Below the pieces are notes generated by a model, which saw only the letters and a program-made list of their open reading frames with translations, was not told where the DNA came from and ran no database searches. Positions 14,345-17,463 of a DNA stretch of 64,000 nucleotides are shown here, piece by piece (position 1 is the stretch's first letter; every line of letters begins with the position of its first letter). The position numbers were made by a program, and so were the translations under genes. The stretch lies in assembly GCF_054482525.1 (NCBI RefSeq), contig NZ_CM137006.1; one strand, written 5' to 3'.

Positions 14345-16323
<1,979 letters not shown>

Positions 16324-16325
<2 letters not shown>

Positions 16326-17463
16326 GTCAGAGCCCCTCGATCTCAATCAGTTAGCGCAAAAAATTAAACAGTGGGGGCTGGAACTGGGCTTTCAGCAGGT
16401 AGGTATTACCGATACCGATCTCAGCGAGTCCGAGCCCAAACTGCAAGCATGGCTGGACAAACAATACCACGGCGAAATGGACTGGATGGCGCGTCACGGT
16501 ATGCTGCGCGCTCGCCCCCATGAATTATTGCCCGGTACGCTGCGCGTGATCAGCGTGCGGATGAATTACCTTCCTGCTAACGCCGCATTTGCCAGCACGC
16601 TGAAAAACCCTAAGCTCGGCTATGTGAGCCGTTATGCGCTGGGCCGTGACTATCACAAACTTCTGCGCAACCGACTCAAAAAGCTGGGCGAGATGATTCA
16701 GCAACATTGTGTTTCGCTGAATTTTAGACCGTTTGTCGATTCTGCGCCTATTCTCGAGCGCCCGTTAGCTGAAAAAGCAGGACTCGGCTGGACAGGTAAG
16801 CACTCACTTATCCTCAATCGCGAGGCTGGTTCGTTCTTCTTTTTAGGCGAATTGCTGGTCGATATTCCTCTGCCCGTGGATCAACCGGTCGAGGAAGGAT
16901 GCGGTAAATGCGTGGCCTGTATGACGATTTGCCCGACCGGAGCCATCGTCGAACCATATACCGTCGATGCTCGCCGCTGTATCTCTTATCTCACCATCGA
17001 ACTGGAGGGGGCGATCCCGGAAGAGTTGCGACCGTTAATGGGAAACCGTATTTACGGTTGCGATGACTGCCAGCTTATCTGCCCGTGGAATCGCTATTCG
17101 CAACTCACTACAGAAGACGATTTCAGCCCGCGTAAGCCGCTACACGCACCGGAACTCATTGAGTTATTCGCCTGGAGTGAAGAGAAGTTTTTAAAAGTCA
17201 CGGAAGGATCGGCGATTCGCCGTATAGGTCATCTGCGTTGGCTGCGTAATATCGCCGTAGCATTAGGCAATGCGCCCTGGGATGAAACGATTTTGACAGC
17301 GCTGGAAAGTCGTAAAGGTGAGCACCCACTTCTTGATGAGCACATAGCGTGGGCGATTGCGCAGCAAATCGAGAGGCGAAATGCGTGCGTGGTCGAAGTG
17401 CAATTGCCGAAAAAACAGCGTCTGGTTAGGGTCATTGAAAAAGGGTTACCGCGTGACGCCTGA
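16324..17463 (+). CDS. queG: Epoxyqueuosine reductase QueG
   Basis: ORF 16216..17463; conserved start [18 protein letters not shown] at codon 37 (379 aa); 4Fe-4S cysteine motifs CGKCVACMTICP and CDDCQLICP. Confidence 0.9.

What the first reader, a model, noticed from the sequence alone, without database searches (positions are those of the whole stretch)
16320..16330. Divergent nnr and queG start codons overlapping on a CATG tetranucleotide
With the starts chosen from conserved N-termini (nnr MTDHTMKK on the minus strand, queG MSEPLD on the plus strand), the two ATG codons overlap by two bases, so each promoter must lie inside the other gene. The alternative nnr start (MKKNPV, 15 nt further in) would remove the overlap.
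Basis: inference. Interest (0 to 1): 0.15.

Follow-up and report, generated by a model that had tools for sequence, protein, structure and literature searches.

The report
Overlapping nnr and queG start codons
Two E. coli genes that point away from each other really do begin on the same four letters (CATG), so each gene's on-switch sits inside the other gene, but reference annotations and published transcript maps already record this, so it is a tidy known case, not a discovery.

Summary
CATG lies at window 16323-16326. The queG ATG is 16324-16326 on the + strand and the nnr ATG is 16325-16323 on the - strand, a 2-nt head-to-head overlap. RefSeq/PGAP and the K-12 MG1655 record both already annotate it.

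Comparison of 30 Enterobacterales genomes supports both starts. Each ATG is the only start codon kept in all species. nnr ATG1 has a conserved GAGGGG Shine-Dalgarno, whereas the alternative MKKNPV start is a non-start codon in 14 species. Published RNA-seq operon maps, carried in a later paper's supplement, put the queG transcript start about 24 nt inside nnr and the nnr operon transcript start 388 nt inside queG. dsRNA from this roughly 413-nt overlap has been captured, including duplexes that span the CATG.

One small addition comes from this work. Synonymous sites are frozen where nnr codons 12-14 encode the queG extended -10 (TGgTATACT) and where queG codons 4-6 encode the nnr Shine-Dalgarno. 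The tight divergent junction is ancestral in gamma-proteobacteria, with spacing from -2 to about 77 nt.

I found no direct translation-start data. Verdict: real, already known, low interest.

The parts
16323..16326 (.). CATG tetranucleotide; the queG ATG (16324-16326, +) and the nnr ATG (16325-16323, -) share bases 16324-16325
   Evidence: Read directly; annotated this way; kept in 30/30 Enterobacterales junctions
16324..17463 (+). queG CDS (epoxyqueuosine reductase, 379 aa)
   Evidence: ORF; RefSeq annotation; PDB homology to B. subtilis QueG 5d08 from residue 6
14778..16325 (-). nnr (yjeF) CDS, bifunctional NAD(P)HX epimerase/dehydratase, 515 aa from ATG1
   Evidence: ORF; RefSeq annotation; PDB homology to TM0922 2ax3 from about residue 61 and to 2dg2 from residue 40
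16333..16338 (-). nnr Shine-Dalgarno GAGGGG, 7-nt spacer to ATG1; on the + strand it is queG Pro4-Leu5 (CCC CTC)
   Evidence: Read; duplex energy -7.2 kcal/mol, top 2.8% of random sites, mean -7.5 over 30 species; queG Leu5 CTC and Asp6 GAT are 100% codon-fixed
16284..16292 (+). queG extended -10 promoter element TGgTATACT (TG 16284-85, hexamer 16287-92), lying in nnr codons Ser12-Ile13-Pro14 (AGT ATA CCA)
   Evidence: Conserved columns; nnr codons 12-14 are 100% codon-fixed; the element sits 8 nt upstream of the mapped queG 5' end; a TGnTAnnnT motif recurs in most of the distant gamma-proteobacterial junctions examined
16300..16323 (+). queG 5' leader (24 nt, U-rich, no real SD); transcript 5' end at 16300 (+/-1)
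   Evidence: Conway overlap end 4392114 (U00096.2) mapped to the window; SD energy -2.2 kcal/mol, the median of random sites
16721..16726 (-). -10 hexamer TAAAAT of the nnr operon promoter; on the + strand it is queG Asn133-Phe134-Arg135 (AAT TTT AGA)
   Evidence: Sequence, 8 nt upstream of the mapped TSS; codon fixation AAT 96%, TTT 77%, AGA 60% across 30 species
16326..16713 (-). 388-nt nnr 5' leader, entirely antisense to queG codons 1-130; TSS at 16713 (+/-1)
   Evidence: Conway promoter 4391701 (U00096.2) mapped to the window
16300..16713 (.). Region transcribed on both strands (about 413 nt); published dsRNA loci map to window 16314-16697 (Lybecker MS-212) and 16305-16660 (p19 cluster S-361)
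   Evidence: siRNA pairs CAUGACGGACCAUACAAUGAAG / UCAUUGUAUGGUCCGUCAUGUC span the CATG itself
16308..16310 (-). Alternative nnr start ATG2 (MKKNPV), disfavoured
   Evidence: A non-start codon in 14 of 30 species; SD energy -3.2 kcal/mol

Best explanation
This is a genuine 2-nt head-to-head overlap of the nnr and queG start codons in E. coli. It is the compact extreme of a divergent junction that is tight throughout gamma-proteobacteria. Because no intergenic DNA is left, each gene's expression signals are written into the other gene's 5' coding sequence. The queG extended -10 promoter (TGgTATACT) is nnr codons 12-14, and the 24-nt queG leader is nnr codons 1-9. The nnr Shine-Dalgarno (GAGGGG) is queG codons 4-5. 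[quoted passage not shown] The two mRNAs are therefore complementary over about 413 nt, including both translation initiation regions. They form dsRNA in vivo that RNase III cuts. Status of each step: the sequence and its conservation are shown here; transcript ends and dsRNA come from the literature; use of these exact ATGs by ribosomes, and any regulatory consequence of the antisense overlap, are inferred.
For: Annotation: carry the same 2-nt overlap. nnr start: ATG1 is present in 30/30 species. In 14 of them it is the only ATG/GTG/TTG between the upstream in-frame stop (2-8 codons away in most) and at least codon 16. Its SD pairing averages -7.5 kcal/mol, against -2.6 at the codon-6 site. 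queG start: the ATG is the only conserved start. An in-frame stop lies 3-8 codons upstream in seven species, six of which have no other canonical start within 30 codons (L013 has a GTG at +25). The mapped 5' end at 16300 excludes any start further upstream. Dual coding: in the gene bodies only 4-6% of conserved degenerate codons are >=90% a single codon, yet nnr codons 2, 3, 4, 12 and 14 are (Fisher p=6e-6), as are queG codons 5 and 6 (p=0.018). Transcripts: Conway promoter 4391701 and overlap end 4392114, Lybecker dsRNA 4391717-4392100, p19 cluster 4391754-4392109; the coordinate system was verified with four siRNA sequences. Ancestry: the divergent nnr-queG pair has -2 to about 77 nt between starts in Vibrionales, Alteromonadales and Aeromonadales, and a TGnTAnnnT motif is present next to or within the nnr 5' end in most. 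The overlapping N-terminal residues lie outside the regions that align to solved homologues.
Against: No ribosome-profiling start-site or N-terminal peptide data for either protein could be retrieved. The starts therefore rest on comparative and signal evidence. In E. coli ATG2 exists and could serve as a minor second start. queG has essentially no Shine-Dalgarno, so its initiation mechanism is unexplained. The transcript ends come from one RNA-seq study seen second-hand in another paper's supplement. Both mapped ends sit 1 nt further from the -10 hexamers than is typical. The frozen synonymous sites in nnr codons 2-4 are consistent with a constraint from the queG leader but do not say what that constraint is.
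Confidence: 0.85

Rival explanations
1. nnr is translated from the second ATG (16310-16308, MKKNPV), so the coding sequences do not overlap and the annotated overlap is a longest-ORF artefact.
For: ATG2 is present in E. coli, E. albertii, Citrobacter and a few others. The first five residues lie far outside the conserved fold. No direct protein N-terminus data were found.
Against: The codon at this position is ATT, CTG, AAG, GAG, GAA, CGA, CAG or TGC in 14 of 30 species, all of which still keep ATG1. SD pairing at ATG2 is at background level (-3.2 kcal/mol; 30% of random sites are as strong), against -7.2 for ATG1. An in-frame stop lies 2-8 codons upstream of ATG1 in most species, so ATG1 is not simply the longest possible ORF.
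Confidence: 0.07
2. The overlap is not just compaction. It is a reciprocal antisense (excludon-like) switch in which each mRNA occludes or destabilises the other's translation initiation region, making queG expression and nnr-superoperon expression mutually antagonistic.
For: The two transcripts are complementary over about 413 nt, including both start codons and the nnr SD. [quoted passage not shown] The junction is conserved across gamma-proteobacteria.
Against: No expression data showing anticorrelation were examined. Conway et al. report that 35% of divergent operon pairs overlap at their 5' ends, so overlap alone does not imply regulation. The nnr operon has 8 promoters, so most downstream genes do not depend on this one. 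The conservation is explained as well by the embedded promoter, SD and protein constraints.
Confidence: 0.2
3. The queG start is mis-annotated (an upstream in-frame ATG at 16279 or GTG at 16216, or a downstream start), so there is no true overlap.
For: The in-frame ORF is open back to 16216 in this strain, with an ATG at 16279. queG lacks an SD.
Against: The mapped transcript 5' end at 16300 lies downstream of both upstream candidates. K-12 differs from the window at 16278-16279, and E. albertii has GTG where the window has this ATG, so it is not fixed even among close relatives. Seven species have an in-frame stop 3-8 codons upstream of the ATG. In the window there is no ATG/GTG/TTG in the first 30 codons downstream, and PDB homology starts at residue 6.
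Confidence: 0.02

Closest known systems
Annotated nnr(yjeF)/queG(yjeS) junction of E. coli K-12 MG1655 (b4167/b4166)
   Same: Identical arrangement: the same start codons and the same 2-nt overlap. There are no indels between K-12 and the window over 16191-16891 and no base differences within 16280-16490.
   Different: Nothing of substance. The window is another E. coli strain, about 97.5% identical over the surrounding 901 nt.
Overlapping divergent operons / 5'-overlap dsRNA loci of E. coli (Conway 2014; Lybecker 2014; Huang 2020), e.g. asd/yhgN, rsd/nudC
   Same: Divergent promoters are placed so that the 5' transcript ends overlap, and the dsRNA is captured by p19 and by a dsRNA antibody. 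yjeS/yjeF is itself listed as cluster S-361 / MS-212.
   Different: Here the coding sequences themselves meet head-to-head, so both promoters are intragenic. The overlap (413 nt) is longer than the 168-nt average.
Excludon (Listeria divergent operons with a long antisense 5' UTR)
   Same: One operon's long 5' leader (388 nt) runs antisense through the start of the divergently transcribed neighbour.
   Different: The defining reciprocal repression has not been shown here. The overlap is mutual and covers only the 5' third of queG, not a whole gene or operon.
Short divergent CDS overlaps in prokaryotic genomes (Lillo & Krakauer 2007)
   Same: It belongs to the rare head-to-head class: 331 divergent overlaps against 12,737 codirectional in 58 genomes, of which only 57 are shorter than 5 nt.
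   Different: Many such overlaps are suspected mis-annotations. This one is supported by conservation of both starts across at least 30 genera and by transcript maps.

Membership tests
Head-to-head (divergent) overlapping CDS pair | Two CDS on opposite strands whose 5' ends share nucleotides | tested here: met
   The ATGs at 16324-16326 (+) and 16325-16323 (-) share 2 nt
Head-to-head (divergent) overlapping CDS pair | Both start codons are the ones actually used (not longest-ORF artefacts) | tested here: inconclusive
   Strong comparative and SD evidence and TSS constraints, but no ribosome-profiling or N-terminal peptide data were retrievable
Overlapping divergent transcription units (5'-overlap class) | Mapped transcript 5' ends lie beyond each other, so the RNAs are complementary | tested here: met
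   Literature values mapped to the window: queG 5' end at 16300, nnr TSS at 16713, overlap 413 nt
Overlapping divergent transcription units (5'-overlap class) | dsRNA from the overlap detected in vivo | tested here: met
   p19 clusters E-284 and S-361 and Lybecker MS-212; siRNA pairs on both strands, including across the CATG
Excludon | The long antisense transcript represses the opposite gene while serving as mRNA for its own operon (reciprocal expression) | not testable with these tools
   No expression or mutant data were available; it would need promoter knock-outs or rnc mutants
Extended -10 sigma-70 promoter (queG) | TG at -15/-14, a -10 hexamer with A-11 and T-7, correct distance to the TSS, weak or absent -35 | tested here: met
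   TGgTATACT at 16284-16292, 8 nt upstream of the mapped 5' end. TG, T-12, A-11 and T-7 are conserved in >=90% of 30 species. The stock scanner, which requires a -35, found no site. Promoter activity of this exact element was not tested experimentally.
QueG epoxyqueuosine reductase | Full-length homology to characterised QueG | tested here: met
   5d08 (B. subtilis QueG), E=2e-49, residues 6-364; named queG by RefSeq
Nnr bifunctional NAD(P)HX repair enzyme | N-terminal epimerase domain plus C-terminal ADP-dependent dehydratase domain | tested here: met
   2ax3 (TM0922, bifunctional Nnr), E=3e-57, residues 61-494; separate hits to dehydratase-only and epimerase-only (AIBP) structures

The most novel reading that the evidence does not exclude
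The junction could be a conserved, reciprocal antisense switch. Each mRNA's 5' end is perfectly complementary to the other's ribosome-binding region. Transcription from the nnr promoter, which heads the operon carrying tsaE, miaA and hfq, and transcription of queG would then antagonise each other through RNase III cleavage, occlusion of the initiation regions, or RNA polymerase collision. That would couple a queuosine tRNA-modification step to the tRNA-modification/Hfq superoperon. A conserved out-of-frame AUG at 16314 in the queG leader might take part.
Probability: 0.15. Interest if true: 0.4.

Novelty: already known. Interest (0 to 1): 0.14.

Why it matters
The finding has little importance in itself. 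It confirms that a rare-looking annotation, a head-to-head start-codon overlap, is real and not a gene-calling artefact. It also gives a clean example of regulatory signals (an extended -10 promoter and a Shine-Dalgarno) encoded within the opposite gene's codons and visibly freezing synonymous sites. That is useful as a teaching case. It is also a caution for codon-usage, dN/dS or recoding and genome-refactoring work: synonymous recoding of nnr codons 12-14 or queG codons 4-6 would be expected to damage the neighbouring gene's expression. If the antisense overlap proved regulatory, it would link queG to the hfq/miaA superoperon, but nothing here shows that.

Tried and rejected
Direct translation-start evidence was sought and not obtained:
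- The stored TRAINSPOTTER N-terminomics table is cut before b4160.
- The Ribo-RET preprint has no held supplement, and the Mol Cell version is not held.
- The tetracycline-profiling supplements have no entry for these genes.
- The only INRI-seq hit for nnr was an unrelated PNA off-target list.

Independent TSS sets also gave nothing. The Cappable-seq supplements had no match to the coordinate prefixes I tried, in either genome version; the table may be cut or formatted differently. Thomason 2015 is not held.

The built-in promoter scan found nothing at either promoter because it requires a -35 hexamer. Rfam found no RNA family at the junction at E<=0.1.

Alternative starts considered and rejected:
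- nnr from the TTG seven codons upstream of ATG1 (16346-16344): present in 15 of 30 junctions (counting the window), no SD, and a stop intervenes in other species.
- queG from ATG 16279 or GTG 16216: both lie upstream of the mapped 5' end and are not conserved.

I did not count head-to-head overlaps across the whole E. coli annotation, since that would take about 93 region calls. I used published counts instead.

Full report
**Observation.**
The window is E. coli. Positions 15900-16800 match strain PCN033 at 100% and about 5,400 other complete genomes at 95-99%. At 16323-16326 the sequence is CATG. ATG 16324-16326 on the + strand opens a 379-aa ORF beginning MSEPLD. The complement of CAT 16323-16325 opens a 515-aa ORF beginning MTDHTMKK. 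The description is accurate.

**Already annotated.**
PGAP annotates nnr and queG with this 2-nt overlap in PCN033. The K-12 MG1655 record does the same: queG 4392928..4394067 on the minus strand and nnr 4394066..4395613 on the plus strand.

**Are these the real starts?**
I fetched the queG locus from 80 species. The analysis used 29 Enterobacterales genomes with an intact junction plus the window, making 30.
- For nnr, ATG1 is present in all 30. An in-frame stop lies 2-8 codons upstream in most. In 14 genomes ATG1 is the only ATG/GTG/TTG before at least codon 16.
- The codon at the ATG2 position is ATG in 10 genomes, GTG or TTG in 6, and a non-start codon (ATT, CTG, AAG, GAG, GAA, CGA, CAG, TGC) in 14.
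- ATG1 is preceded by GAGGGG-type sequence with a 7-8 nt spacer. Pairing with the 16S 3' end is -7.2 kcal/mol in the window, within the top 2.8% of random sites, and averages -7.5 over 30 species. The ATG2 site gives -3.2 kcal/mol, which 30% of random sites match or beat.
- For queG, the ATG is the only conserved start. Seven species have an in-frame stop 3-8 codons upstream, and six of those have no other canonical start within 30 codons; L013 has a GTG at +25.
- The upstream in-frame ATG at 16279 coincides with base differences from K-12 at 16278-16279 and is GTG in E. albertii, so it is not conserved.

**Transcripts (from the literature).**
Huang et al. 2020 (PMC7373196) list yjeS/yjeF among the top 20 coding-gene dsRNA clusters captured by p19, classed as a 5' overlap. 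Their Table S1 reproduces two earlier datasets for this locus:
- the Conway et al. 2014 overlapping-transcript entry: overlap 4391701-4392114, a plus-strand operon with promoter at 4391701 and terminator at 4408049, overlap length 413, 'Divergent';
- the Lybecker dsRNA locus MS-212, 4391717-4392100.

Four siRNA sequences from the same supplement confirmed that these are U00096.2 coordinates, offset 1977 from NC_000913.3. K-12 and the window have no indels in this region.

Mapped to the window:
- The queG transcript begins at 16300, giving a 24-nt leader that lies inside nnr codon 9.
- The nnr operon transcript begins at 16713 on the minus strand, giving a 388-nt leader that lies entirely inside queG.
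- The p19 cluster covers 16305-16660.
- One captured duplex, CAUGACGGACCAUACAAUGAAG paired with UCAUUGUAUGGUCCGUCAUGUC, spans the CATG itself. Both strands are therefore transcribed through the junction.

The 16300 end also rules out any queG start further upstream. Conway et al. describe yjeF...rlmB as their most complex operon (14 genes, 8 promoters, 4 terminators). They report that 136 of 388 divergent operon pairs overlap at their 5' ends. Overlapping divergent transcripts are thus ordinary, and only the CDS-level overlap is unusual.

**Promoter elements.**
Before seeing the mapped ends, I had noted a conserved TGTGGTAtACT at 16282-16292. It reads as an extended -10: TG at 16284-85 and TATACT at 16287-92. 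Its predicted +1 at 16299 is 1 nt from the mapped end. TG, T-12, A-11 and T-7 are each conserved in at least 90% of the 30 species. The nnr TSS is preceded by TAAAAT at 16726-16721. The stock scanner missed both elements because neither has a recognisable -35.

**Dual coding.**
Codon alignments of the 30 species gave the baseline. In the gene bodies, only 4-6% of conserved degenerate codons are at least 90% a single codon. The junction departs sharply from that:
- nnr Thr2-Asp3-His4 (ACG GAC CAT, the complement of the queG leader) are 96-100% fixed.
- nnr Ser12-Ile13-Pro14 (AGT ATA CCA, the complement of TGgTATACT) are 100% fixed among sequences with those residues. Fisher p=6e-6 for nnr codons 2-15 against the rest of the gene.
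- queG Leu5 (CTC, one of six Leu codons) and Asp6 (GAT) are 100% fixed. They are the complement of the nnr SD and its flank (p=0.018).
- At the nnr -10, queG Asn133 AAT is 96% fixed and Phe134 TTT 77%. AGA, which from general knowledge is a rare Arg codon in these bacteria, is the majority Arg135 codon at 60%.

The overlapping N-terminal residues lie outside the regions that align to solved homologues. PDB homology begins at QueG residue 6 and at about Nnr residue 40-61. Within E. coli, the 62-nt core is identical in 5,250 of 5,425 genomes.

**Evolution.**
Outside Enterobacterales, nnr and queG are still divergent neighbours in many Vibrionales, Alteromonadales and Aeromonadales. The best candidate starts are separated by 11-25 nt in several loci: Pseudoalteromonas L055, Thalassotalea L069, Aliidiomarina L060, Grimontia L044 and Psychromonas L075. 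The separation reaches about 77 nt in others and is -2 nt (CATG again) in Tolumonas L072. A TGnTAnnnT motif lies within or next to the first nnr codons in most of them. The 2-nt overlap is therefore the limit of an anciently compact junction. In Brenneria and Pectobacterium nnr has moved or been remodelled while queG keeps cATG.

**Mechanism.**
Three things are shown: the sequence arrangement, its conservation, and the embedded signals. Two come from the literature: both TSS positions, and dsRNA formation with RNase III-type 21-22-nt products. Three are inferred: that ribosomes use exactly these ATGs; that queG, which has no real SD (-2.2 kcal/mol) and a U-rich 24-nt leader, initiates independently of an SD; and that the mutual antisense overlap has a regulatory effect. 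I rate an excludon-like regulatory role at about 0.15-0.2.

**Comparison and novelty.**
The overlap is in the reference annotation, and the overlapping transcripts and dsRNA are published. Divergent CDS overlaps are a recognised rare class: 331 against 12,737 codirectional in 58 genomes, with 57 shorter than 5 nt. What this analysis adds is support for both starts and the mapping of frozen synonymous sites onto the neighbour's promoter and SD. That is a small refinement and not a new kind of feature.

**Limits.**
No start-site ribosome profiling or N-terminal proteomics for these two proteins could be retrieved. No second TSS dataset could be retrieved either. Both mapped TSSs lie 8 nt, not the typical 7 nt, from their -10 hexamers, so they should be treated as +/-1 nt.

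Noticed in passing
window 15254-15219 and 15158-15141 (minus strand; nnr codons 358-369 and 390-395): This is a second cluster of synonymous-site-frozen codons inside nnr across 30 Enterobacterales (AAC, CTG, GCA, ATC, AAT; ATT, CGC, TTA). By eye the first patch contains TTGAAC (15257-15252) followed 14 nt later by TCCCGATAAG (15237-15228), loosely sigma-32-like. It could be one of the internal promoters Conway et al. report for this operon. The stock promoter scan found nothing.
   Followed up: partly
window 16314-16367 (+): An out-of-frame ATG sits 10 nt upstream of the queG ATG, inside the 24-nt queG leader. It is the complement of the fully codon-fixed nnr His4 CAT and opens a 17-codon ORF ending at TAA 16365-16367. 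It becomes CTG or TTG in Pantoea and Rahnella, so it may be a by-product, but the reason CAT is frozen is unexplained.
   Followed up: partly
window 17733-18030 (-): The window has three tandem tRNA-Gly(GCC) genes, as in K-12 (glyV, glyX, glyY). The PCN033 RefSeq record, which matches the junction at 100%, annotates only two, and its orn coordinates are offset by 111 nt, one repeat unit. The window therefore differs from that assembly in tRNA copy number.
   Followed up: partly
window 17867-18005 (-): A sub-threshold Rfam hit to YrlA (Y RNA-like), 40 bits against a gathering score of 69, spans two tRNA-Gly copies. It is almost certainly an artefact of the tRNA-like module in that model.
   Followed up: no
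window 14778-14806 (-): The nnr 3' end and the tsaE start overlap co-directionally by 29 nt. PCN033 and K-12 are annotated the same way.
   Followed up: no
window 17446-17499 (-): A 17-aa yjeV-like small ORF is annotated antisense across the queG stop region, both in the RefSeq record of the closest strain and in K-12.
   Followed up: no
L072 2499-2503 (Tolumonas MAG); L028 and L031 (Brenneria, Pectobacterium): Tolumonas (Aeromonadales) has the same CATG head-to-head overlap, either independently or ancestrally. In Brenneria and Pectobacterium queG keeps cATG and the TGGTAAAAT -10, but the nnr reading frame from that ATG is closed by a stop and nnr homology starts 148 nt or about 1.2 kb away.
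   Followed up: partly
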